A stretch of DNA of 64,000 bases from Escherichia coli (GTDB taxonomy: Bacteria; Pseudomonadota; Gammaproteobacteria; Enterobacterales; Enterobacteriaceae), in NCBI RefSeq assembly GCF_002854065.1, contig NZ_CP024147.1; one strand, written 5' to 3'. The notes beneath the pieces were generated by a model that worked only from the letters and a program-made list of their open reading frames with translations, did no database searches and was not told the origin of the DNA. Below are positions 50,371-64,000 of this stretch, piece after piece. Every line of letters begins with the position of its first letter. Positions within the stretch are counted from its first letter, which is position 1. The position numbers and the translations under genes were made by a program.

Positions 50371-50500
50371 AGTGTGGTAGAATATCAGCTTACTATTGCT
50401 TTACGAAAGCGTATCCGGTGAAATAAAGTCAACCTTTAGTTGGTTAATGTTACACCAACAACGAAACCAACACGCCAGACTTATTCCTGTGGAGTTATAT

Positions 50501-50830
50501 ATGAGCGATAAAATTATTCACCTGACTGACGACAGTTTTGACACGGATGTACTCAAAGCGGACGGGGCGATCCTCGTCGATTTCTGGGCAGAGTGGTGCG
50601 GTCCGTGCAAAATGATCGCCCCGATTCTGGATGAAATCGCTGACGAATATCAGGGCAAACTGACCGTTGCAAAACTGAACATCGATCAAAACCCTGGCAC
50701 TGCGCCGAAATATGGCATCCGTGGTATCCCGACTCTGCTGCTGTTCAAAAACGGTGAAGTGGCGGCAACCAAAGTGGGCGCACTGTCTAAAGGTCAGTTG
50801 AAAGAGTTCCTCGACGCTAACCTGGCGTAA
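50501..50830 (+). CDS. trxA: Thioredoxin 1
   Basis: Active site WCGPC; start placed at [22 protein letters not shown] (109 aa), the ORF track extension of 35 codons is rejected. Confidence 0.97.
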
Positions 50831-51156: not shown

Positions 51157-52416
51157 ATGAATCTTACCGAATTAAAGAATACGCCGGTTTCTGAGCTGAT
51201 CACTCTCGGCGAAAATATGGGGCTGGAAAACCTGGCTCGTATGCGTAAGCAGGACATTATTTTTGCCATCCTGAAGCAGCACGCAAAGAGTGGCGAAGAT
51301 ATCTTTGGTGATGGCGTACTGGAGATATTGCAGGATGGATTTGGTTTCCTCCGTTCCGCAGACAGCTCCTACCTCGCCGGTCCTGATGACATCTACGTTT
51401 CCCCTAGCCAAATCCGCCGTTTCAACCTCCGCACTGGTGATACCATCTCTGGTAAGATTCGCCCGCCGAAAGAAGGTGAACGCTATTTTGCGCTGCTGAA
51501 AGTTAACGAAGTTAACTTCGACAAACCTGAAAACGCCCGCAACAAAATCCTCTTTGAGAACTTAACCCCGCTGCACGCAAACTCTCGTCTGCGTATGGAA
51601 CGTGGTAACGGTTCTACTGAAGATTTAACCGCTCGCGTACTGGATCTGGCATCACCTATCGGTCGTGGTCAGCGTGGTCTGATTGTGGCACCGCCGAAAG
51701 CCGGTAAAACCATGCTGCTGCAGAACATTGCTCAGAGCATTGCTTACAACCACCCGGATTGTGTGCTGATGGTTCTGCTGATCGACGAACGTCCGGAAGA
51801 AGTAACCGAGATGCAGCGTCTGGTAAAAGGTGAAGTTGTTGCTTCTACCTTTGACGAACCCGCATCTCGCCACGTTCAGGTTGCGGAAATGGTGATCGAG
51901 AAGGCGAAACGCCTGGTTGAGCACAAGAAAGACGTTATCATTCTGCTCGACTCCATCACTCGTCTGGCGCGCGCTTACAACACCGTTGTTCCGGCGTCAG
52001 GTAAAGTGTTGACAGGTGGTGTGGACGCCAATGCCCTTCATCGTCCGAAACGCTTCTTTGGTGCGGCGCGTAACGTGGAAGAGGGCGGCAGCCTGACCAT
52101 TATCGCGACGGCGCTTATCGATACCGGTTCTAAAATGGACGAAGTTATTTACGAAGAGTTTAAAGGTACAGGCAACATGGAACTGCACCTCTCTCGTAAG
52201 ATCGCTGAAAAACGCGTCTTCCCGGCTATCGACTACAACCGTTCCGGTACCCGTAAAGAAGAGCTGCTCACGACTCAGGAAGAACTGCAGAAAATGTGGA
52301 TCCTGCGCAAAATCATTCACCCGATGGGCGAAATCGATGCAATGGAATTCCTCATTAATAAACTGGCAATGACCAAGACCAATGACGATTTCTTCGAAAT
52401 GATGAAACGCTCATAA
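51157..52416 (+). CDS. rho: Transcription termination factor Rho
   Basis: Start placed at [41 protein letters not shown] (419 aa); Walker A APPKAGKT. Confidence 0.98.
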
Positions 52417-52430
52417 ATTTGTCTTATGCC

Positions 52431-52465
52431 AAAAACGCCACGTGTTTACGTGGCGTTTTGCTTTT
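52431..52465 (+). terminator. Intrinsic terminator after rho
   Basis: Hairpin AAAACGCCACGTG TTTA CGTGGCGTTTT followed by a T-run. Confidence 0.85.
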
Positions 52466-52655
52466 ATATCTGTAATCTTAATGCCGCGCTGGCGATGTTA
52501 GGAAAATTCCTGGAATTTGCTGGCATGTTATGCACCTTGCATATCAAATGGTTAATTTTTGCATAGGGCTGGTGGGTTCGGAACGGACTTTCCCTTCTGA
52601 ATAAAGGTCTTCGTGGTTATACTTCTGCTAATAATTTTCTCTGAGAGCATGCATT

Positions 52656-53759
52656 GTGAATTTACTGACAGTGAGTACTGATCTCATCAGTATTTTTTTA
52701 TTCACGACACTGTTTCTGTTTTTTGCCCGTAAGGTGGCAAAAAAAGTCGGTTTAGTGGATAAACCAAACTTCCGCAAACGTCACCAGGGATTGATACCTC
52801 TCGTTGGGGGGATTTCGGTTTACGCAGGGATTTGCTTCACGTTCGGAATTGTCGATTACTATATTCCGCATGCATCTCTCTATCTCGCTTGTGCCGGTGT
52901 GCTTGTTTTCATTGGCGCGCTGGATGACCGTTTTGATATCAGCGTAAAAATCCGTGCCACCATACAGGCCGCTGTTGGCATTGTTATGATGGTGTTCGGC
53001 AAGCTTTATCTCAGTAGCCTGGGTTATATCTTTGGCTCCTGGGAGATGGTGCTCGGACCGTTTGGTTACTTCCTGACGCTATTTGCCGTCTGGGCGGCCA
53101 TTAATGCGTTCAACATGGTTGATGGCATTGATGGCTTGCTGGGCGGGTTGTCCTGCGTCTCGTTTGCAGCAATCGGTATGATTTTGTGGTTCGACGGGCA
53201 AACCAGCCTCGCAATCTGGTGCTTTGCGATGATCGCCGCCATCCTGCCATACATCATGCTTAACCTTGGTATCCTGGGTCGCCGCTACAAAGTCTTTATG
53301 GGTGATGCGGGCAGTACGCTGATTGGTTTTACCGTTATCTGGATCCTGCTCGAAACGACCCAGGGCAAAACCCATCCCATCAGCCCGGTTACCGCTTTGT
53401 GGATAACCGCCATTCCGCTAATGGATATGGTGGCGATTATGTACCGTCGCCTGTGTAAAGGCATGAGCCCATTCTCTCCTGACCGTCAGCATATTCACCA
53501 TTTGATCATGCGTGCCGGGTTTACTTCCCGTCAGGCGTTTGTGCTGATTACCCTTGCCGCAGCACTGCTCGCTTCCATTGGCGTGCTGGCAGAATATTCT
53601 CATTTTGTCCCGGAGTGGGTCATGCTGGTGCTCTTTTTGCTAGCATTCTTCCTCTATGGATATTGCATTAAGCGTGCCTGGAAAGTTGCTCGCTTTATTA
53701 AGCGCGTAAAACGCAGACTGCGTAGAAATCGTGGTGGCAGCCCCAATTTAACCAAATAA
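52656..53759 (+). CDS. wecA: UDP-GlcNAc:undecaprenyl-phosphate GlcNAc-1-phosphate transferase
   Basis: 367-aa polytopic membrane ORF with GTG start (MNLLTVSTDLISIFLFTTLFLFFARK...); first gene of the ECA cluster. Confidence 0.93.
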   Translation: MNLLTVSTDLISIFLFTTLFLFFARKVAKKVGLVDKPNFRKRHQGLIPLVGGISVYAGICFTFGIVDYYIPHASLYLACAGVLVFIGALDDRFDISVKIRATIQAAVGIVMMVFGKLYLSSLGYIFGSWEMVLGPFGYFLTLFAVWAAINAFNMVDGIDGLLGGLSCVSFAAIGMILWFDGQTSLAIWCFAMIAAILPYIMLNLGILGRRYKVFMGDAGSTLIGFTVIWILLETTQGKTHPISPVTALWITAIPLMDMVAIMYRRLCKGMSPFSPDRQHIHHLIMRAGFTSRQAFVLITLAAALLASIGVLAEYSHFVPEWVMLVLFLLAFFLYGYCIKRAWKVARFIKRVKRRLRRNRGGSPNLTK

Positions 53760-53770
53760 ATGAGGATGTG

Positions 53771-54817
53771 ATGACACAACCAATGCCTGGGAAACCGGCC
53801 GAAGACGCTGAAAATGAACTGGATATTCGTGGGTTGTTTCGTACCTTGTGGGCTGGGAAGCTATGGATTATTGGCATGGGGCTGGCGTTTGCGTTAATCG
53901 CGCTGGCGTATACGTTTTTTGCTCGTCAGGAGTGGAGCTCGACGGCGATTACCGATCGTCCAACGGTGAATATGCTGGGGGGATATTACTCGCAGCAGCA
54001 ATTTTTGCGTAACCTGGATGTCCGTTCAAACATGGCTTCTGCCGACCAACCATCGGTCATGGACGAAGCCTATAAAGAGTTTGTTATGCAACTGGCCTCG
54101 TGGGATACCCGCAGAGAGTTCTGGCTGCAAACCGACTATTACAAGCAGCGGATGGTGGGCAACAGCAAAGCCGATGCGGCGTTGCTGGATGAAATGATTA
54201 ACAACATCCAGTTTATCCCCGGAGACTTTACCCGCGCGGTCAATGACAGCGTGAAGCTTATTGCCGAAACCGCGCCTGACGCTAATAACCTGTTACGTCA
54301 GTATGTTGCTTTTGCCAGCCAGCGTGCAGCCAGCCATCTGAATGATGAGCTGAAAGGCGCATGGGCGGCACGCACCATCCAGATGAAAGCTCAGGTGAAG
54401 CGTCAGGAAGAGGTGGCGAAAGCCATCTACGACCGCCGGATGAACAGCATTGAGCAGGCGCTGAAAATTGCTGAGCAGCATAATATTTCGCGCAGTGCGA
54501 CAGATGTGCCTGCCGAGGAATTACCTGATTCAGAAATGTTCCTGCTTGGGCGTCCAATGCTCCAGGCTCGACTGGAAAATTTACAGGCCGTCGGTCCGGC
54601 CTTTGATCTCGACTATGATCAGAATCGGGCCATGTTAAACACCCTGAATGTTGGTCCAACCCTGGATCCGCGTTTTCAGACCTATCGCTATTTGCGTACG
54701 CCGGAAGAACCGGTAAAACGCGATAGCCCACGTCGTGCCTTCCTGATGATTATGTGGGGCATTGTCGGGGGGCTGATCGGGGCTGGTGTCGCATTAACCC
54801 GCCGTTGCTCGAAATAG
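53771..54817 (+). CDS. wzzE: ECA polysaccharide chain-length modulator
   Basis: PCP family with N- and C-terminal transmembrane segments; start placed at the ATG (MTQPMPGK...), one codon inside the GTG-initiated ORF. Confidence 0.9.
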
Positions 54818-54872
54818 CAACACTGCTGCGGTGAGCGCAAAGGCGCTCGCCGCTTATTCGAAGAGAATCGAT

Positions 54873-56003
54873 GTGAAAGTACTGACTGTATTTGGTACGC
54901 GCCCGGAAGCCATCAAGATGGCTCCGTTGGTGCATGCGTTGGCAAAAGATCCTTTTTTTGAGGCTAAAGTTTGCGTCACTGCGCAGCATCGGGAGATGCT
55001 CGATCAGGTGCTGAAACTCTTTTCCATTGTACCTGACTACGATCTCAACATAATGCAGCCAGGACAGGGCCTGACAGAGATAACCTGTCGGATTCTGGAA
55101 GGGCTAAAACCTATTCTTGCCGAGTTCAAACCAGACGTCGTGCTGGTTCACGGCGACACAACGACGACGCTGGCAACCAGCCTGGCGGCGTTTTATCAGC
55201 GTATTCCTGTTGGTCACGTTGAGGCTGGTTTACGCACGGGCGATCTCTATTCGCCGTGGCCGGAAGAGGCTAACCGTACATTGACCGGGCATCTGGCGAT
55301 GTATCATTTCTCTCCAACCGAAACTTCCCGGCAAAACTTGCTGCGTGAAAACGTTGCAGATAGCCGAATCTTCATTACCGGTAATACAGTCATTGATGCA
55401 CTGTTATGGGTGCGTGACCAGGTGATGAGCAGCGACACGCTGCGTTCAGAACTTGCGGCAAATTACCCGTTTATCGACCCCGATAAAAAGATGATTCTGG
55501 TGACCGGTCACAGGCGTGAAAGCTTCGGTCGTGGCTTTGAAGAAATCTGCCACGCGCTGGCAGACATCGCCACCACGCACCAGGACATCCAGATTGTCTA
55601 TCCGGTGCATCTCAACCCGAACGTCAGAGAGCCGGTCAATCGCATTCTGGGGCATGTGAAAAATGTCATTCTGATCGATCCCCAGGAGTATTTACCGTTT
55701 GTCTGGCTGATGAACCACGCCTGGCTGATTTTGACCGACTCAGGCGGCATTCAGGAAGAAGCGCCTTCGCTGGGGAAACCGGTGCTGGTGATGCGCGATA
55801 CCACTGAGCGTCCGGAAGCGGTGACGGCGGGTACGGTGCGTCTGGTAGGCACGGATAAGCAGCGAATTGTCGAGGAAGTGACGCGTCTTTTAAAAGACGA
55901 AAACGAATATCAAACTATGAGCCGCGCCCATAACCCGTATGGTGATGGTCAGGCATGCTCTCGCATTCTGGAAGCGTTAAAAAATAATCGGATATCACTA
56001 TGA
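54873..56003 (+). CDS. wecB: UDP-N-acetylglucosamine 2-epimerase
   Basis: Start placed at GTG giving [20 protein letters not shown] (376 aa). Confidence 0.93.
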
Positions 56004-57262
56004 GTTTTGCGACCATTTCTGTTATCGGACTGGGTTACATCGGGCTGCCTACAGCAGCAGCGTTTGCCTCACGGCAAAAACAGGTGATTGGTGTCGATAT
56101 CAACCAACACGCGGTTGATACCATCAATCGTGGCGAAATCCATATCGTCGAGCCTGATTTGGCGAGCGTAGTAAAAACTGCCGTAGAAGGCGGTTTTTTA
56201 CGAGCGAGCACGACGCCAGTTGAAGCGGATGCCTGGCTGATTGCTGTACCCACGCCGTTTAAAGGCGATCATGAGCCAGATATGACCTACGTTGAATCGG
56301 CTGCTCGCTCCATTGCGCCAGTGCTGAAAAAAGGCGCGCTGGTGATCCTTGAATCCACCTCGCCGGTGGGGTCAACCGAGAAGATGGCAGAATGGTTAGC
56401 AGAGATGCGTCCGGATCTCACTTTCCCACAGCAGGTGGGCGAGCAGGCGGACGTCAACATTGCTTACTGCCCGGAACGCGTGTTACCGGGCCAGGTTATG
56501 GTCGAGCTGATTAAAAACGATCGCGTGATTGGTGGTATGACGCCGGTTTGTTCGGCCCGCGCCAGCGAACTGTACAAAATTTTCCTCGAAGGTGAGTGTG
56601 TCGTCACTAACTCGCGGACGGCGGAAATGTGTAAGCTCACCGAAAACAGCTTCCGCGATGTGAATATCGCTTTTGCTAATGAATTGTCGCTGATTTGTGC
56701 CGATCAGGGGATTAACGTCTGGGAACTGATTCGCTTGGCGAATCGTCACCCTCGCGTTAATATTCTTCAGCCTGGCCCTGGCGTGGGCGGTCACTGCATT
56801 GCTGTTGATCCGTGGTTTATCGTGGCACAGAACCCCCAGCAGGCGCGGCTTATCCGTACCGCGCGCGAAGTGAACGATCACAAACCGTTCTGGGTTATCG
56901 ATCAGGTGAAAGCGGCGGTGGCTGATTGCCTGGCGGCTACCGATAAACGCGCCAGTGAACTGAAAATCGCCTGCTTTGGTCTGGCGTTTAAACCGAATAT
57001 TGATGACCTGCGCGAAAGCCCGGCGATGGAAATCGCTGAACTGATCGCCCAGTGGCATAGCGGCGAAACTCTGGTTGTTGAGCCTAACATCCACCAGTTG
57101 CCGAAAAAACTGACCGGGCTTTGTACTCTGGCGCAGCTTGACGAGGCGCTGGCAACGGCAGACGTGCTGGTGATGCTGGTCGATCATAGTCAGTTCAAAG
57201 TTATCAATGGCGACAATGTCCATCAGCAGTATGTCGTCGATGCCAAAGGAGTCTGGCGCTGA
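56000..57262 (+). CDS. wecC: UDP-N-acetyl-D-mannosamine dehydrogenase
   Basis: 420-aa ORF with NAD-binding motif GLGYIGLP; overlaps the wecB stop (ATGA). Confidence 0.95.
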
Positions 57263-58329
57263 TGAGAAAAATTCTGATAACAGGTGGTGCCGGGTTTATT
57301 GGCTCGGCGCTGGTGCGTTATATCATCAACGAAACGAGCGACGCGGTGGTAGTGGTCGATAAGCTGACCTACGCCGGAAACCTGATGTCGCTGGCACCGG
57401 TCGCGCAAAGCGAGCGCTTTGCCTTTGAGAAAGTTGATATCTGCGATCGGGCAGAACTGGCGCGCGTATTCACTGAGCATCAGCCAGACTGTGTCATGCA
57501 TCTGGCAGCCGAAAGCCATGTTGACCGTTCTATTGACGGCCCGGCAGCGTTTATTGAAACCAACATTGTCGGGACTTATACATTGCTTGAAGCGGCGCGG
57601 GCTTACTGGAATGCGCTAACGGAAGATAAAAAATCAGCGTTCCGTTTTCATCATATCTCCACTGACGAAGTATATGGTGACCTGCACTCGACGGATGATT
57701 TCTTCACCGAAACCACGCCGTATGCGCCGAGCAGCCCTTATTCCGCGTCAAAAGCCAGCAGCGACCATCTGGTGCGCGCCTGGCTGCGGACCTATGGTCT
57801 GCCGACGCTTATCACCAACTGCTCGAATAACTACGGCCCTTACCACTTTCCGGAAAAACTGATCCCGCTGATGATCCTCAACGCGCTGGCGGGTAAATCG
57901 CTGCCGGTATATGGCAACGGGCAGCAAATCCGTGACTGGCTGTATGTGGAAGATCACGCCCGCGCGCTGTATTGCGTGGCGACCACCGGGAAAGTCGGTG
58001 AAACCTATAATATTGGTGGTCACAACGAGCGTAAGAATCTCGATGTTGTGGAAACCATTTGCGAGCTGCTGGAAGAACTGGCTCCGAACAAGCCGCACGG
58101 CGTGGCGCACTATCGTGACCTGATCACCTTTGTCGCTGACCGTCCGGGGCATGATCTGCGTTATGCCATTGATGCTTCGAAAATTGCCCATGAACTTGGC
58201 TGGCTGCCGCAGGAAACCTTTGAAAGTGGAATGCGTAAAACGGTGCAGTGGTATCTGGCTAATGAAAGCTGGTGGAAGCAGGTGCAGGACGGCAGCTATC
58301 AGGGCGAGCGTTTAGGTCTGAAAGGCTAA
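57262..58329 (+). CDS. rffG: dTDP-glucose 4,6-dehydratase (ECA-cluster paralog)
   Basis: 355-aa ORF with SDR motifs GGAGFIGS and YSASK. Confidence 0.93.
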
Positions 58330-58347
58330 TTTTCAGCGGAGGCAAAC

Positions 58348-59229
58348 ATGAAAGGTATTATCCTGGCGGGCGGTTCCGGCACCCGATTGCATCCGATTAC
58401 GCGCGGCGTATCGAAGCAACTGTTGCCGATTTACGATAAGCCAATGATTTACTATCCGCTGTCGGTGCTGATGCTGGCCGGTATCCGCGAAATTCTCATC
58501 ATCACTACGCCGGAAGATAAAGGTTATTTCCAGCGCCTGCTGGGCGATGGTAGTGAGTTCGGTATCCAGCTGGAATATGCCGAACAGCCCAGCCCGGACG
58601 GTCTGGCGCAGGCCTTTATCATCGGTGAAACCTTCCTTAATGGTGAACCTTCTTGTCTGGTGCTGGGCGATAACATCTTCTTCGGTCAGGGCTTCAGTCC
58701 GAAGCTGCGTCATGTTGCGGCGCGCACGGAAGGGGCGACGGTTTTTGGCTATCAGGTGATGGACCCGGAACGCTTTGGCGTGGTGGAGTTTGACGACAAT
58801 TTCCGCGCTATCTCGCTGGAAGAAAAGCCAAAACAGCCGAAGTCAAACTGGGCGGTGACCGGGCTTTATTTCTACGACAGTAAAGTCGTGGAGTACGCAA
58901 AGCAGGTGAAGCCGTCGGAGCGTGGTGAACTGGAGATTACCTCCATCAACCAGATGTACCTCGAGGCGGGCAACCTGACCGTTGAACTGCTCGGGCGCGG
59001 ATTTGCCTGGCTGGACACTGGCACTCACGACAGCCTGATTGAAGCCAGCACCTTTGTACAGACGGTGGAAAAACGCCAGGGCTTTAAGATTGCCTGCCTG
59101 GAAGAGATCGCCTGGCGTAACGGCTGGCTCGATGACGAGGGTGTGAAGCGTGCTGCCAGTTCATTAGCGAAAACTGGCTACGGCCAATATCTGCTGGAGT
59201 TACTTCGTGCCCGTCCGCGCCAGTATTGA
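58348..59229 (+). CDS. rffH: Glucose-1-phosphate thymidylyltransferase (ECA-cluster paralog)
   Basis: 293-aa ORF with N-terminal motif [18 protein letters not shown]. Confidence 0.93.
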
Positions 59230-59881
59230 GCCACTAACTTGGGAAAACGCCTTCTTTGGTGTTAACAGCGCCATCGTGCGCATTACGTCTGAAGCACCGC
59301 TCCTGACGCCAGACGCGTTAGCGCCGTGGTCACGGGTGCAGGCCAAAATTGCGGCATCAAATACGGGTGAACTGGATGCCCTGCAACAGCTGGGATTCTC
59401 CCTGGTAGAAGGTGAAGTTGATTTGGCGCTACCCGTGAACAATGCCAGTGATAGCGGTGCTGTAGTGGCACAAGAGACCGATATTCCCGCATTACGTCAG
59501 TTAGCCAGCGCCGCATTTGCGCAAAGCCGTTTTCGTGCGCCGTGGTATGCGCCTGACGCCAGCAGTCGCTTTTATGCACAGTGGATTGAAAATGCCGTGC
59601 GCGGCACCTTTGATCATCAATGTCTGATTTTACGTGCGGCGTCCGGCGATATTCGCGGCTATGTCTCTTTACGGGAACTCAATGCGACAGATGCGCGAAT
59701 AGGCCTGCTGGCTGGACGCGGTGCAGGTGCTGAGCTGATGCAAACGGCGCTAAACTGGGCGTATGCTCGCGGTAAAACAACTTTGCGGGTGGCGACCCAA
59801 ATGGGCAACACCGCCGCGCTTAAACGATACATACAAAGTGGTGCGAATGTAGAAAGCACCGCGTACTGGTTATACAGGTGA
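59207..59881 (+). CDS. wecD: dTDP-fucosamine acetyltransferase (GNAT)
   Basis: 224-aa ORF from a GTG start overlapping the rffH 3' end by 23 bp; start is the least certain in the cluster. Confidence 0.8.
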
Positions 59882-59885
59882 TCAC

Positions 59886-61016
59886 ATGATTCCATTTAAC
59901 GCACCGCCGGTGGTGGGAACCGAACTCGACTATATGCAGTCGGCAATGGGTAGCGGCAAACTGTGTGGCGATGGCGGTTTTACCCGTCGCTGCCAGCAGT
60001 GGCTGGAGCAACGTTTTGGCAGCGTCAAAGTGTTACTGACGCCGTCCTGCACCGCTTCGCTGGAGATGGCGGCGCTGCTGCTCGATATCCAGCCTGGCGA
60101 TGAAGTGATCATGCCGAGCTACACCTTTGTCTCCACCGCCAATGCCTTTGTGCTGCGTGGCGCGAAAATCGTCTTTGTGGATGTTCGCCCGGACACCATG
60201 AACATCGACGAAACGCTGATTGAAGCGGCGATCACCGACAAAACGCGCGTTATCGTGCCGGTCCATTACGCGGGTGTGGCCTGCGAAATGGACACCATTA
60301 TGGCGTTGGCGAAAAAGCATAATCTGTTTGTGGTGGAAGATGCTGCTCAGGGCGTGATGTCCACTTACAAAGGGCGTGCACTGGGAACCATTGGTCATAT
60401 TGGCTGCTTTAGCTTCCATGAAACCAAAAACTACACGGCGGGTGGTGAAGGCGGCGCGACGCTGATTAACGATAAAGCGTTAATCGAACGAGCCGAGATC
60501 ATCCGTGAAAAAGGCACTAACCGCAGCCAGTTCTTCCGTGGTCAGGTCGATAAATATACCTGGCGCGATATTGGCTCCAGCTATTTGATGTCCGATCTGC
60601 AAGCTGCGTACCTGTGGGCGCAACTGGAAGCAGCGGATCGTATCAACCAGCAACGTCTGGCGCTGTGGCAAAACTACTACGATGCGTTAGCGCCTCTGGC
60701 GAAAGCCGGGCGTATCGAGCTGCCGTCGATTCCCGATGGCTGCGTGCAGAACGCGCATATGTTCTACATTAAACTGCGGGATATTGATGACCGGAGCGCG
60801 TTGATTAACTTTCTGAAAGAAGCGGAAATCATGGCGGTGTTCCATTACATTCCGCTGCACGGTTGCCCTGCGGGGGAACGCTTTGGTGAGTTCCACGGTG
60901 AAGATCGCTACACCACCAAAGAGAGCGAGCGCCTGCTGCGCCTGCCGCTGTTCTACAACCTGTCGCCCGTCAATCAGCGTACGGTAATTGCGACTTTGTT
61001 GAACTACTTCTCCTGA
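59886..61016 (+). CDS. wecE: dTDP-4-keto-6-deoxy-D-glucose aminotransferase (DegT/AHBA family, PLP-dependent)
   Basis: 376-aa ORF (MIPFNAPPVVGTELDYMQSAMGSGKLCGDGGFTRRCQQWLEQ...). Confidence 0.93.
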   Translation: MIPFNAPPVVGTELDYMQSAMGSGKLCGDGGFTRRCQQWLEQRFGSVKVLLTPSCTASLEMAALLLDIQPGDEVIMPSYTFVSTANAFVLRGAKIVFVDVRPDTMNIDETLIEAAITDKTRVIVPVHYAGVACEMDTIMALAKKHNLFVVEDAAQGVMSTYKGRALGTIGHIGCFSFHETKNYTAGGEGGATLINDKALIERAEIIREKGTNRSQFFRGQVDKYTWRDIGSSYLMSDLQAAYLWAQLEAADRINQQRLALWQNYYDALAPLAKAGRIELPSIPDGCVQNAHMFYIKLRDIDDRSALINFLKEAEIMAVFHYIPLHGCPAGERFGEFHGEDRYTTKESERLLRLPLFYNLSPVNQRTVIATLLNYFS

Positions 61017-61017
61017 T

Positions 61018-62268
61018 ATGTCGTTGGCAAAAGCGTCCTTGTGGACGGCGGCCAGTACACTGGTCAAGATTGGTGCCGGGTTACTGGTCGGTAAGTTGCT
61101 GGCGGTGTCATTTGGTCCGGCGGGGCTTGGGCTGGCGGCAAATTTCCGCCAGTTGATTACCGTGCTCGGCGTGCTTGCCGGGGCTGGCATCTTTAACGGT
61201 GTAACCAAATACGTTGCCCAGTACCATGATAATCCGCAACAGCTGCGCCGCGTGGTCGGCACTTCATCAGCGATGGTACTTGGTTTCTCTACGCTGATGG
61301 CGCTGGTTTTTGTGCTGGCAGCTGCGCCAATCAGCCAGGGATTGTTTGGTAATACCGACTATCAGGGGCTGGTGCGTTTAGTGGCGCTGGTGCAAATGGG
61401 GATTGCCTGGGGCAACCTGTTACTGGCGCTGATGAAAGGCTTTCGCGATGCCGCAGGTAATGCGTTATCGCTGATTGTCGGCAGCTTGATTGGCGTTCTC
61501 GCGTACTACGTCAGTTACCGTTTGGGCGGTTATGAAGGGGCGTTGCTGGGTCTGGCGCTGATTCCCGCGCTGGTGGTGATTCCTGCCGCCATCATGTTGA
61601 TCAAACGTGGTGTCATCCCGTTAAGCTATCTGAAACCCAGCTGGGATAACGGTTTGGCAGGGCAGTTGAGCAAATTTACGCTCATGGCGTTGATTACGTC
61701 GGTGACCTTGCCTGTTGCTTACATCATGATGCGTAAACTGCTGGCGGCGCAGTATAGCTGGGATGAGGTGGGGATCTGGCAAGGGGTGAGCAGTATTTCC
61801 GATGCCTACCTGCAATTTATTACGGCATCGTTCAGCGTATATTTGCTGCCCACGTTGTCGCGGCTAACGGAAAAGCGCGATATCACCCGGGAAGTGGTTA
61901 AATCGCTGAAATTCGTCTTACCGGCAGTGGCGGCGGCGAGTTTTACCGTCTGGTTGCTGCGTGATTTTGCTATCTGGCTGCTGTTGTCGAATAAATTTAC
62001 CGCTATGCGCGATCTCTTTGCCTGGCAGTTAGTGGGTGATGTGTTAAAAGTGGGCGCTTATGTCTTTGGTTATCTGGTGATCGCCAAAGCTTCACTGCGG
62101 TTTTATATTCTGGCGGAAGTCAGCCAGTTCACTTTATTGATGGTATTTGCCCACTGGCTAATCCCTGCACATGGTGCACTGGGCGCGGCGCAGGCCTATA
62201 TGGCAACCTATATCGTCTATTTTTCTCTTTGTTGTGGCGTGTTTTTACTCTGGCGTAGGCGGGCATGA
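61018..62268 (+). CDS. wzxE: ECA lipid III flippase (Wzx family)
   Basis: 416-aa polytopic membrane ORF. Confidence 0.9.
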
Positions 62269-63344
62269 CTGTACTGATTCACGTACTGGGATCGGATATC
62301 CCTCACCATAACCGAACCGTTTTGCGGTTTTTCAATGACGCGCTGGCCGCGACGAGCGAGCACGCGCGCGAGTTTATGGTTGTTGGCAAGGACGACGGCT
62401 TAAGTGATAGCTGTCCGGCGCTTTCTGTGCAATTTTTCCCTGGGAAAAAATCGCTGGCGGAAGCGGTCATCGCGAAAGCAAAAGCTAACCGTCAGCAGCG
62501 TTTTTTCTTCCACGGTCAGTTCAATCCCAAACTGTGGCTGGCTTTGCTGAGTGGTGGCATTAAGTCCCGCCAGTTTTTCTGGCATATCTGGGGGGCAGAT
62601 CTGTATGAGCTTTCCAGTGGCTTGAGATATAAGCTTTTTTACCCGCTACGTCGCCTGGCGCAAAAGCGAGTCGGCTGTGTATTTGCCACCCGCGGTGATT
62701 TGAGCTTTTTTGCCAAAACGCATCCAAAGGTGCGGGGCGAACTGCTGTACTTCCCGACGCGGATGGATCCTTCTCTCAATACGATGGCGAACGATCGGCA
62801 ACGTGAAGGGAAAATGACCATTCTGGTGGGGAACTCCGGCGACCGCAGCAATGAGCATATTGCTGCCTTGCGCGCCGTTCATCAGCAATTTGGCGATACG
62901 GTAAAAGTGGTGGTGCCGATGGGATATCCGCCTAATAACGAAGCGTACATCGAGGAAGTTCGTCAGGCGGGGCTGGAGTTATTCAGCGAAGAAAATCTGC
63001 AAGTTCTGAGTGAAAAACTGGAATTTGACGCCTATCTCACGCTACTTCGTCAGTGCGATCTTGGTTACTTTATTTTTGCCCGCCAGCAGGGCATTGGTAC
63101 GCTGTGCTTACTGATTCAGGCGGGTATTCCTTGTGTGCTTAACCGGGAAAATCCGTTCTGGCAGGATATGACGGAACAGCATTTGCCGGTGCTGTTTACT
63201 ACCGACGATCTCAACGAGGATATTGTGCGTGAAGCGCAGCGCCAGTTGGCGTCGGTGGATAAAAACACCATTGCCTTCTTTAGCCCTAACTATCTACAAG
63301 GCTGGCAGCGGGCGTTGGCGATTGCCGCCGGGGAGGTCGCATGA
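62265..63344 (+). CDS. wecF: TDP-Fuc4NAc:lipid II Fuc4NAc transferase
   Basis: 359-aa ORF overlapping the wzxE stop (ATGA). Confidence 0.9.
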
Positions 63345-64000
63345 GTCTGCTGCAATTCAGTGGCCTGTTTGTGGTCTGGCTGCTCTGCACGCTGTTTATT
63401 GCCACGCTGACCTGGTTTGAGTTTCGCCGTGTGCGCTTTAACTTCAATGTCTTCTTTTCATTGCTGTTTTTGCTCACCTTTTTCTTCGGCTTCCCGCTGA
63501 CCAGCGTGCTGGTATTTCGCTTTGATGTTGGTGTCGCGCCGCCAGAAATCTTGTTGCAGGCGTTGCTTTCTGCGGGCTGCTTCTACGCGGTTTACTATGT
63601 CACCTACAAAACCCGCCTACGCAAACGCGTTGCTGATGTACCGCGCCGTCCGCTGTTTACCATGAATCGCGTGGAGACCAATCTTACGTGGGTGATCCTG
63701 ATGGGTATCGCGCTGGTAAGCGTCGGCATCTTCTTCATGCACAACGGCTTTTTGCTGTTCCGGCTTAACTCCTACAGTCAGATCTTTTCCAGTGAAGTCT
63801 CCGGCGTGGCGTTAAAACGCTTCTTTTACTTTTTCATCCCGGCGATGCTGGTGGTCTACTTTCTGCGCCAGGACAGCAAAGCGTGGCTGTTTTTCCTCGT
63901 CAGCACGGTCGCCTTTGGCTTGCTGACTTATATGATTGTCGGCGGCACTCGCGCCAATATCATCATCGCATTCGCTATCTTCCTGTTTATTGGCATTATT
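63341..64000 (+). CDS. wzyE: ECA polymerase (Wzy family); N-terminal 220 codons, continues beyond the window
   Basis: ATG at 63341 overlapping the wecF stop (ATGA); open hydrophobic frame ([28 protein letters not shown]...) to the window end; absent from the ORF track because no stop occurs in the window. Confidence 0.85.

What the first reader, a model, noticed from the sequence alone, without database searches (positions are those of the whole stretch)
52656..64000. Complete enterobacterial common antigen cluster with tight translational coupling
Eleven co-directional genes (wecA, wzzE, wecB, wecC, rffG, rffH, wecD, wecE, wzxE, wecF, wzyE) are packed with overlapping or abutting junctions: wecB/wecC ATGA, wecC/rffG 1-bp overlap, rffH/wecD 23-bp overlap with a GTG start, wzxE/wecF ATGA, wecF/wzyE ATGA. 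wecA and wecB also appear to use GTG starts. The cluster is intact in this strain.
Basis: partly seen in the sequence, partly recalled or inferred. Interest (0 to 1): 0.2.

Follow-up and report, generated by a model that had tools for sequence, protein, structure and literature searches.

The report
E. coli ECA (wec) operon, ordinary
This is the well-known E. coli gene cluster for enterobacterial common antigen, compact as described and annotated the same way in K-12, but cut off by the window end, so it is an ordinary, already-known feature.

Summary
The region is the E. coli wec (rfe-rff) operon for enterobacterial common antigen, located after rho. It is 100% identical to two E. coli genomes and 99.2% identical to K-12, with no indels.

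- GTG starts for wecA, wecB and wecD.
- ATGA overlaps at wecB/wecC, wzxE/wecF and wecF/wzyE.
- A TGATG overlap at wecC/rffG.
- A 23-nt rffH/wecD overlap.

This layout is conserved in 80 Enterobacteriaceae species. The wecD GTG start is well supported. It is the only start-type codon upstream of invariant residues L10, W12, E13, F16 and F17, and the first in-frame ATG is codon 178.

"Complete" is wrong for the window. wzyE is cut at 64000 (660 of 1353 nt), and the twelfth gene, wecG/rffM, lies outside.

Translational coupling is plausible but untested. Several downstream genes have their own Shine-Dalgarno sequence; only wecC and wzxE lack a good one.

Two side observations:
- A covarying hairpin between wzzE and wecB, with a published Term-seq 3' end 7 nt after it.
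- A palindrome in wecA codons 8-13 whose synonymous sites are frozen.

Verdict: already known, low interest.

The parts
52432..52459 (+). rho intrinsic terminator. It marks the upstream boundary and is not part of the wec operon.
   Evidence: 12-bp stem followed by a T run. Term-seq 3' end of rho at K-12 3967721 (PMC7815308 supplement).
52618..52623 (+). TATACT, a -10-like hexamer about 33 nt upstream of the wecA GTG. It is a putative proximal wec promoter element (inference).
   Evidence: TATACTT is kept in at least 90% of 51 distinct upstream sequences from Enterobacteriaceae. PMC8669472 reports four transcription start sites plus PdeL and NsrR sites upstream of wecA. Promoter activity of this particular hexamer was not tested here.
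52656..53759 (+). wecA (rfe), UDP-GlcNAc:undecaprenyl-phosphate GlcNAc-1-P transferase, 367 aa. GTG start with a weak Shine-Dalgarno sequence.
   Evidence: TIGR02380 569 bits (cut-off 326). GTG at the homologous codon in 64/64 loci. SD duplex -2.7 kcal/mol.
52676..52699 (+). Palindrome TACTGAT-CTC-ATCAGTA followed by T7, inside wecA codons 7-15. Function unknown.
   Evidence: Synonymous sites are frozen: ACT 50/50, ATC 44/48, AGT 54/54, ATT 53/59. The loop codon Leu10 uses five codons. The 6-codon window has z = -2.9. The K-12 Term-seq 3' end at 3967945 equals window 52685, which falls in the loop.
53771..54817 (+). wzzE, ECA chain-length regulator, 348 aa. ATG start with a strong Shine-Dalgarno sequence.
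   Evidence: NF008645 694 bits. ATG in 71/71 loci. SD -6.1 kcal/mol.
54828..54853 (+). Conserved RNA hairpin (11-bp stem, AAAG loop) in the wzzE-wecB spacer. Probably a leaky intra-operon terminator or 3'-end-protecting hairpin.
   Evidence: MFE z = -3.3. 9 of 9 consensus pairs show compensatory changes in 64 sequences. 87.7% of cells are paired, against 33-64% when the partners are slid; 0 of 500 shuffles reach the covariation score. K-12 Term-seq 3' end at 3970120 equals window 54860, 7 nt after the stem.
54873..56003 (+). wecB, UDP-GlcNAc 2-epimerase, 376 aa. GTG start with a weak Shine-Dalgarno sequence. The 16 nt before the start are nearly invariant.
   Evidence: TIGR00236 621 bits. GTG in 76/76 loci. 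AAGAGAATCGATGTGAAAGTACT is conserved.
56000..57262 (+). wecC, UDP-ManNAc dehydrogenase, 420 aa. ATGA overlap with wecB and a weak Shine-Dalgarno sequence.
   Evidence: -4 overlap in 79/79 loci. SD -3.3 kcal/mol.
57262..58329 (+). rffG, dTDP-glucose 4,6-dehydratase, 355 aa. TGATG 1-nt overlap with wecC.
   Evidence: In other species the overlap is -4 (25 loci) or -1 (20 loci), with ATG, TTG or GTG starts.
58348..59229 (+). rffH (rmlA paralogue), glucose-1-phosphate thymidylyltransferase, 293 aa.
   Evidence: Its last codons, 286-291, have the strongest synonymous constraint in the cluster (z = -4.3).
59207..59881 (+). wecD (rffC), dTDP-fucosamine acetyltransferase, 224 aa. GTG start 23 nt inside rffH.
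   Evidence: NF008212 covers residues 1-224. The PDB 2FS5/2FT0 chain contains residues 2-224. Overlap and GTG are conserved. Residues 4-23 are as conserved as the rest of the protein.
59886..61016 (+). wecE (rffA), dTDP-4-keto-6-deoxyglucose aminotransferase, 376 aa.
   Evidence: 4-nt gap in 77/79 loci.
61018..62268 (+). wzxE, lipid III(ECA) flippase, 416 aa. 1-nt gap after wecE and no recognisable Shine-Dalgarno sequence.
   Evidence: 1-nt gap in 74/76 loci. SD duplex +0.4 kcal/mol.
62265..63344 (+). wecF (rffT), Fuc4NAc transferase, 359 aa. ATGA overlap with wzxE.
   Evidence: -4 overlap in 76/78 loci.
63341..64000 (+). wzyE, ECA polymerase. Only the first 220 of 450 codons are present, because the window end cuts the gene. 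ATGA overlap with wecF and a strong Shine-Dalgarno sequence.
   Evidence: -4 overlap in 76/76 loci. SD -11.7 kcal/mol.

Best explanation
The region is the 5' 11.3 kb of the canonical E. coli wec operon: wecA-wzzE-wecB-wecC-rffG-rffH-wecD-wecE-wzxE-wecF-wzyE-(wecG). This operon makes enterobacterial common antigen through a Wzx/Wzy-dependent pathway.

Shown here:
- Gene identity and order.
- Start codons and junction geometry.
- Conservation of that geometry across Enterobacteriaceae.
- The GTG start of wecD.

Inferred:
- The operon is transcribed from promoters between rho and wecA.
- The overlapping or abutting stop/start junctions let ribosomes that finish one gene reinitiate on the next (termination-reinitiation coupling).
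- Coupling is most likely obligatory at wecB->wecC and wecE->wzxE, where the downstream gene has little or no Shine-Dalgarno sequence. It is probably only supplementary where a good Shine-Dalgarno sequence sits inside the upstream gene (rffG, wecD, wzyE).
- The weak GTG start and weak Shine-Dalgarno sequence of wecA and wecB keep the two UDP-GlcNAc-consuming enzymes at low translation.
- The hairpin between wzzE and wecB partly separates wecA-wzzE expression from the downstream genes.
For: - Identity to known genomes: 100% identity to two E. coli genomes, and the cluster is present in 5425 of 5426 complete E. coli genomes.
- Annotation: same coordinates as PGAP and K-12. 99.2% identical to K-12 with no indels and only 16 amino-acid changes.
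- Protein families: every protein is above its NCBIfam equivalog cut-off.
- Junction geometry: conserved in 80 species loci.
- wecD start: GTG is the only start-type codon between the upstream in-frame stop (-14 codons) and codon 24. Residues L10, W12, E13, F16 and F17 are invariant in 81 sequences.
- wecD start without rffGH: in 34 loci lacking rffG-rffH, wecD still starts within 3 codons of the same position, using ATG, TTG or GTG.
- Dual coding: the rffH tail shows the strongest synonymous constraint in the cluster.
- Solved structure: the crystallised WecD chain contains residues 2-224.
- Shine-Dalgarno strengths.
- Operon and regulation literature: PMC7439462, PMC12212991 and PMC8669472.
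Against: - No experiment on translational coupling in this operon was found.
- Five downstream genes carry their own good Shine-Dalgarno sequence, so coupling need not be tight.
- No ribosome-profiling or N-terminomics data for WecA, WecB or WecD could be retrieved.
- The window itself cannot show that wzyE and wecG are intact.
Confidence: 0.88

Rival explanations
1. wecD does not start at the overlapping GTG but at a downstream codon (GTG24, GTG44 or the first ATG). Under this reading the 23-nt overlap would be an annotation artefact of taking the longest ORF.
For: The older TIGR02382 model begins at residue 44 of the protein. In-frame GTG codons exist at positions 24 and 44. No direct initiation data were found.
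Against: - The first in-frame ATG is codon 178, which would leave a 47-aa fragment.
- Residues 4-23 are as conserved as the rest of the protein (0.77 against 0.79 majority fraction), with five invariant residues.
- GTG24 is absent from many species.
- The start position is kept even where the upstream gene is wecC rather than rffH. Some of those loci have ATG with a strong Shine-Dalgarno sequence (L074, L080).
- NF008212 matches residues 1-224.
- The crystallised chain has residues 2-224.
- The rffH tail is the most synonymously constrained stretch in the cluster.
Confidence: 0.03
2. The compact junctions are inherited operon architecture with no functional translational coupling. Each gene initiates independently, and the overlaps simply reflect the mutational ease of ATGA/TGATG arrangements.
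For: - Overlaps of -4 and -1 are the commonest operon spacings in bacteria generally (established knowledge).
- Good Shine-Dalgarno sequences precede rffG, wecD and wzyE despite the overlaps.
- The wecC/rffG junction switches between -4 and -1, and the rffG start codon switches among ATG, GTG and TTG across species.
Against: - wzxE has no Shine-Dalgarno sequence at all (+0.4 kcal/mol) and wecC only a weak one (-3.3), yet both junctions are invariant: 1-nt gap in 74/76 loci and -4 in 79/79. This suggests reliance on the upstream ribosome.
- Synonymous constraint appears at the 3' ends of wecB, wzxE and wecD. That constraint could equally reflect embedded Shine-Dalgarno sequences.
Confidence: 0.3
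3. Other start choices are right for wzzE (GTG 53768) or wecB (GTG 54831, 390 aa), as the purely mechanical longest-ORF list suggests.
For: the ORF listing reports those upstream GTGs as the first start-type codons of the two ORFs.
Against: - The GTG at 54831 lies inside the covarying hairpin. The spacer varies in length by non-multiples of 3 (43-112 nt) and is not conserved as protein.
- The wecB GTG at 54873 aligns with model position 1 of TIGR00236 and is invariant in 76 loci.
- For wzzE, the ATG is invariant in 71 loci, and the GAGGA Shine-Dalgarno sequence is spaced for the ATG.
Confidence: 0.02

Closest known systems
E. coli K-12 MG1655 wec (rfe-rff) operon, b3784-b3794
   Same: Same gene order, same gene lengths, same start codons (GTG for wecA, wecB and rffC/wecD), and same gaps and overlaps at every junction. 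99.2% nucleotide identity without indels.
   Different: 91 substitutions and 16 amino-acid replacements, 7 of them in WecF. The window stops inside wzyE, so wecG/rffM is not included.
Termination-reinitiation translational coupling at overlapping stop/start codons (for example the trp operon TGATG junctions; established knowledge)
   Same: ATGA and TGATG overlaps. Two downstream genes (wecC, wzxE) lack a good Shine-Dalgarno sequence.
   Different: Dependence of downstream translation on upstream translation has not been measured for any wec junction. Several wec junctions have independent Shine-Dalgarno sequences.
Intra-operon intrinsic terminators / attenuating hairpins that give differential expression within a polycistron
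   Same: GC-rich 11-bp hairpin in the only long spacer of the operon. A Term-seq 3' end lies 7 nt downstream. Coverage drops only modestly, from 176 to 130.
   Different: The U tract is poor (CUUAUUC; CUAAUCG in most species). The published intrinsic-terminator score of 2.88 is below the 3.0 threshold. The hairpin could instead protect a processed 3' end.

Membership tests
Enterobacterial common antigen (wec/rff) gene cluster | Twelve genes in the order wecA-wzzE-wecB-wecC-rffG-rffH-wecD-wecE-wzxE-wecF-wzyE-wecG on one strand | tested here: inconclusive
   The first ten genes and 49% of wzyE are present in the right order. The rest of wzyE and all of wecG lie beyond base 64000. Both are intact in the 100%-identical genome CUWW06.
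Enterobacterial common antigen (wec/rff) gene cluster | Each product matches the curated family model for its ECA enzyme above the cut-off | tested here: met
   All ten whole proteins exceed the NCBIfam cut-offs. Examples: WecA 569/326, WzzE 694/332, WecD 358/219, WzxE 809/325, WecF 856/754 bits.
Enterobacterial common antigen (wec/rff) gene cluster | Chromosomal position directly downstream of rho | tested here: met
   rho ends at 52416, its terminator is at 52432-52459, and wecA starts at 52656.
Enterobacterial common antigen (wec/rff) gene cluster | The strain actually produces ECA | not testable with these tools
   Needs immunoblotting or chemical analysis.
Translationally coupled gene pairs | Stop codon of the upstream gene overlaps or abuts the start codon of the downstream gene | tested here: met
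   Junction spacings are -4, -1, -23, -4 and -4, plus gaps of 1 and 4 nt. They are conserved in 43-79 species loci each.
Translationally coupled gene pairs | Downstream gene lacks an independent ribosome-binding site | tested here: inconclusive
   This is true for wzxE (+0.4 kcal/mol) and weakly so for wecC (-3.3). It is not true for rffG (-8.2), wecD (-5.9) and wzyE (-11.7).
Translationally coupled gene pairs | Downstream translation falls when upstream translation is stopped | not testable with these tools
   No such experiment was found in the literature searches.
Intrinsic (Rho-independent) terminator, applied to the wzzE-wecB hairpin | Stable GC-rich stem-loop | tested here: met
   11-bp stem. 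The 81-nt region folds at -29.6 kcal/mol, z = -3.3. Covariation supports the stem.
Intrinsic (Rho-independent) terminator, applied to the wzzE-wecB hairpin | U-rich tract immediately 3' of the stem | tested here: not met
   The tract is CUUAUUC in E. coli and CUAAUCG in most other species. The simple terminator scan does not list it. The published terminator score is 2.88, below 3.0.
Intrinsic (Rho-independent) terminator, applied to the wzzE-wecB hairpin | RNA 3' ends map a few nt after the stem, independent of Rho | tested here: met
   From published K-12 data, not generated here: the 3' end at 3970120 is 7 nt after the stem, seen in two growth conditions, with Rho region 'No'.

The most novel reading that the evidence does not exclude
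The operon may carry undescribed post-transcriptional control at its 5' end. Three observations could fit together:
- The two enzymes that draw on UDP-GlcNAc, WecA and WecB, both keep a GTG start and a weak Shine-Dalgarno sequence in every species examined.
- wecA codons 8-13 hold a palindrome or hairpin whose synonymous sites are frozen.
- The wzzE-wecB spacer holds a covarying hairpin with a mapped RNA 3' end, followed by about 20 invariant nucleotides up to the wecB start.

Together these could form a conserved cis-regulatory layer that sets flux into ECA and the WecB-dependent N4 receptor glycan. The layer might be a leaky attenuator plus a binding site for an sRNA or a protein.
Probability: 0.15. 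Interest if true: 0.4.

Novelty: already known. Interest (0 to 1): 0.12.

Why it matters
The finding as stated adds nothing to what is already in the K-12 annotation and the ECA literature. It is useful only as confirmation that this strain carries a standard wec operon. The comparative work does put the three GTG starts and the rffH/wecD overlap on firm footing. It also points to two small conserved nucleotide-level elements, the wzzE-wecB hairpin and the wecA codon 8-13 palindrome. Neither is mentioned in the ECA papers I read, including the 2025 review of ECA regulation. Both could be tested cheaply.

Tried and rejected
- **Conserved uORF at the wecA start.** The out-of-frame ATG at 52649, 7 nt upstream of the wecA GTG, is not conserved; it reads CACG, TATA or CACC in other species. 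Rejected.
- **wecA palindrome plus T7 as an ORF-internal intrinsic terminator.** The supplement lists -50..+10 around each 3' end. I checked this register against the rho terminator entry. The wecA 3' end, K-12 3967945 or window 52685, therefore falls in the loop and not after the T run. Its terminator score is 1.11. A simple-termination reading is not supported.
- **LexA box for TACTGA-N5-TCAGTA.** The spacing is wrong: CTG-N7-CAG rather than CTG-N10-CAG (from memory of the consensus). Rejected.
- **Rfam.** No family matches either element, at gathering thresholds or at E <= 1.
- **Direct initiation evidence.** The TRAINSPOTTER supplements have no wec entries. The Ribo-RET preprint supplements are not held. 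Hung et al. 2006 (WecD structure) and Li et al. 2014 are not held.
- **Similarity of the wecA and wecB start regions.** GTGAATTTACTGAC and GTGAAAGTACTGAC match at 12 of 14 positions. I noted this but did not pursue it; it may reflect A/T-rich early codons.

Full report
**What is there**

The window is E. coli chromosome: glmU-atp-mnmG/mioC-rbs-rrn-ilv-rep-rho-wec. Bases 52000-64000 are 100% identical to two complete E. coli genomes. At least 80% of this stretch is found in 5425 of 5426 complete E. coli genomes. Against K-12 MG1655 the stretch 52417-64000 has 91 substitutions, no indels, and 16 amino-acid changes in total.

All ten complete proteins exceed the curated NCBIfam cut-offs for the expected ECA enzymes.

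**Check of the observation**

| Junction | Geometry |
|---|---|
| wecB/wecC | ATGA, 4-nt overlap |
| wecC/rffG | TGATG, 1-nt overlap |
| rffH/wecD | 23-nt overlap, GTG start |
| wzxE/wecF | ATGA |
| wecF/wzyE | ATGA |

wecA and wecB start with GTG. The remaining junctions have gaps of 11, 55, 18, 4 and 1 nt.

One part is wrong. The cluster is not complete in the window. wzyE is cut at base 64000, leaving 660 of 1353 nt, and the twelfth gene, wecG/rffM, lies beyond it. Intactness of those two genes is only inferred from the identical genomes.

**Is the geometry meaningful?**

I fetched 80 loci from other Enterobacteriaceae species, with 64-94% WecD identity, and located all twelve genes by tblastn. 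The geometry is strongly conserved:

| Feature | Loci |
|---|---|
| wecB/wecC -4 | 79/79 |
| wzxE/wecF -4 | 76/78 |
| wecF/wzyE -4 | 76/76 |
| wecE/wzxE 1-nt gap | 74/76 |
| wecD/wecE 4-nt gap | 77/79 |
| rffH/wecD -23 | 43/45 (GTG in 44/45) |
| wecA GTG | 64/64 |
| wecB GTG | 76/76 |

The wecC/rffG junction alternates between -4 and -1, with ATG, GTG or TTG starts.

Within this window, 5 of 10 wec junctions overlap, against 2 of 24 other same-strand junctions (p = 0.014, post hoc). But -4 and -1 overlaps are the commonest operon spacings in bacteria (established knowledge). The pattern is real, conserved and ordinary.

**The wecD start**

That test fails to refute the GTG start, for these reasons:

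- The first in-frame ATG is codon 178.
- The GTG at 59207 is the only start-type codon between the upstream in-frame stop, 14 codons before it, and codon 24.
- Residues 4-23 are as conserved as the rest of the protein. L10, W12, E13, F16 and F17 are invariant in 81 sequences.
- In 34 loci, rffG-rffH are absent and wecD follows wecC. wecD still begins within three codons of the same position. It then uses ATG (16 loci), TTG (11) or GTG (7), some with a strong Shine-Dalgarno sequence.
- A cluster-wide scan of synonymous-site variability puts rffH codons 286-291, the overlap, as the most constrained stretch (z = -4.3). That is the signature of dual coding.
- NF008212 matches residues 1-224.
- The crystallised WecD chain (2FS5/2FT0) contains residues 2-224.
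- The GTG is partly held in place by the rffH frame. The base change G to A would turn Arg into His in RffH (rffH tail [10 protein letters not shown]).

**Translational coupling**

This is inference, not observation. Anti-Shine-Dalgarno duplex energies (background -2.6 +/- 2.3 kcal/mol) fall into two groups:

| Group | Genes and energies (kcal/mol) |
|---|---|
| Clear SD | wzzE -6.1, rffG -8.2, rffH -9.5, wecD -5.9, wzyE -11.7 |
| Weak or none | wecA -2.7, wecB -2.9, wecC -3.3, wecE -3.8, wecF -5.1 (borderline), wzxE +0.4 |

The best candidates for obligatory termination-reinitiation are therefore wecB->wecC and wecE->wzxE. Elsewhere coupling may only add to independent initiation.

I found no experiment on coupling in this operon. 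I could retrieve no initiation-site or N-terminomics data for these genes.

**Things found on the way**

- **wzzE-wecB hairpin.** The one loose junction, the 55-nt wzzE-wecB spacer, holds an 11-bp GC-rich hairpin at 54828-54853.
  - All nine consensus pairs show compensatory changes across 64 distinct spacers. 87.7% of cells are paired, against 33-64% when partners are slid, and 0 of 500 shuffles reach the covariation score.
  - Published Term-seq data for K-12 place an RNA 3' end at 3970120, which is window 54860. That is 7 nt after the stem and 13 nt before the wecB GTG. It was seen in two conditions and is not Rho-dependent. Its intrinsic-terminator score is 2.88, and coverage falls from 176 to 130 (PMC7815308 supplements).
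  - The U tract is poor. A leaky terminator or a 3'-end-protecting hairpin are both possible.
  - The roughly 20 nt from the hairpin to the wecB GTG are almost invariant.
- **wecA palindrome.** wecA codons 8-13 form the palindrome TACTGAT-CTC-ATCAGTA (52676-52692), followed by T7.
  - The synonymous positions in the arms are frozen: ACT 50/50, ATC 44/48, AGT 54/54, ATT 53/59.
  - The loop codon and the flanking codons vary freely. The 6-codon window has z = -2.9 and ranks 12th in the cluster.
  - The Term-seq 3' end at window 52685 lies in the loop, so simple termination is not the explanation.
- **Prior description.** No Rfam family covers either element. The 2025 review of ECA regulation does not mention them.
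- **Variable rffG-rffH.** rffG-rffH are a variable part of the cluster, absent in 34 of 80 species loci. Some of those loci retain a remnant of the rffH 3' end upstream of wecD.

**Comparison with what is known**

The region is the same operon as K-12 b3784-b3794. The operon, its enzymology and its known regulators (PdeL, NsrR, ElyC) are reviewed in PMC7439462, PMC12212991 and PMC8669472. Novelty: already known.

**Verdict**

- Interest is low (0.12).
- The most novel reading still open is that the conserved GTG starts, the wecA palindrome and the wzzE-wecB hairpin form an undescribed post-transcriptional control layer. I give this a probability of about 0.15 and an interest of about 0.4 if true.

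Noticed in passing
window 54828-54860: Covarying 11-bp hairpin in the wzzE-wecB spacer. A published K-12 Term-seq 3' end lies 7 nt after it. The next ~20 nt, up to the wecB GTG, are nearly invariant across 64 Enterobacteriaceae sequences.
   Followed up: yes
window 52676-52699: Palindrome TACTGAT-CTC-ATCAGTA plus a T7 run inside wecA codons 7-15. Synonymous sites in the arms are frozen across about 59 species, while the loop codon varies. The published 3' end maps to the loop. Function unknown.
   Followed up: partly
L006, L012, L017, L019, L026, L030, L031, L034, L036-L038, L051-L054, L061-L082 (wecC-wecD junction, about locus 10000): rffG-rffH are absent from the ECA cluster in 34 of 80 species loci. 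wecD then follows wecC directly, often with a GTGA/TTGA overlap. L030 and L031 keep what looks like a remnant of the rffH 3' end. C. amalonaticus (L016) has rffG but no rffH.
   Followed up: partly
window 52656-52669 and 54873-54886: The two GTG-start genes share 12 of 14 nt from the start codon (GTGAATTTACTGAC and GTGAAAGTACTGAC). Both have weak Shine-Dalgarno sequences, and both stretches are conserved across species. This may be chance or A/T-rich early-codon bias.
   Followed up: no
window 63839-63856 (wzyE codons 167-172); also wzyE codons 218-223 at the window edge and 340-345 outside it: Unusually low synonymous variability inside wzyE (z = -4.0, -3.9 and -3.3 in the cluster-wide scan). 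No explanation was sought.
   Followed up: no
window 36174-37820: ilvG is an uninterrupted 548-codon ORF here. In K-12 it carries a frameshift (from memory; the strain table lists MG1655 as ilvG-).
   Followed up: partly
window 32244-35779: The window matches strain CUWW06 exactly across the wec region. It differs from that strain at 2581 positions in the first 50 kb, apparently concentrated downstream of the rrn operon (first dense mismatches from 32244). This may be an indel or a recombinant segment.
   Followed up: no
window 50431-50530 and 864-1021: Rfam matches above gathering score. The TrxA 5' UTR thermometer lies upstream of trxA. sRNA STnc410 lies in the glmU-atpC interval.
   Followed up: no
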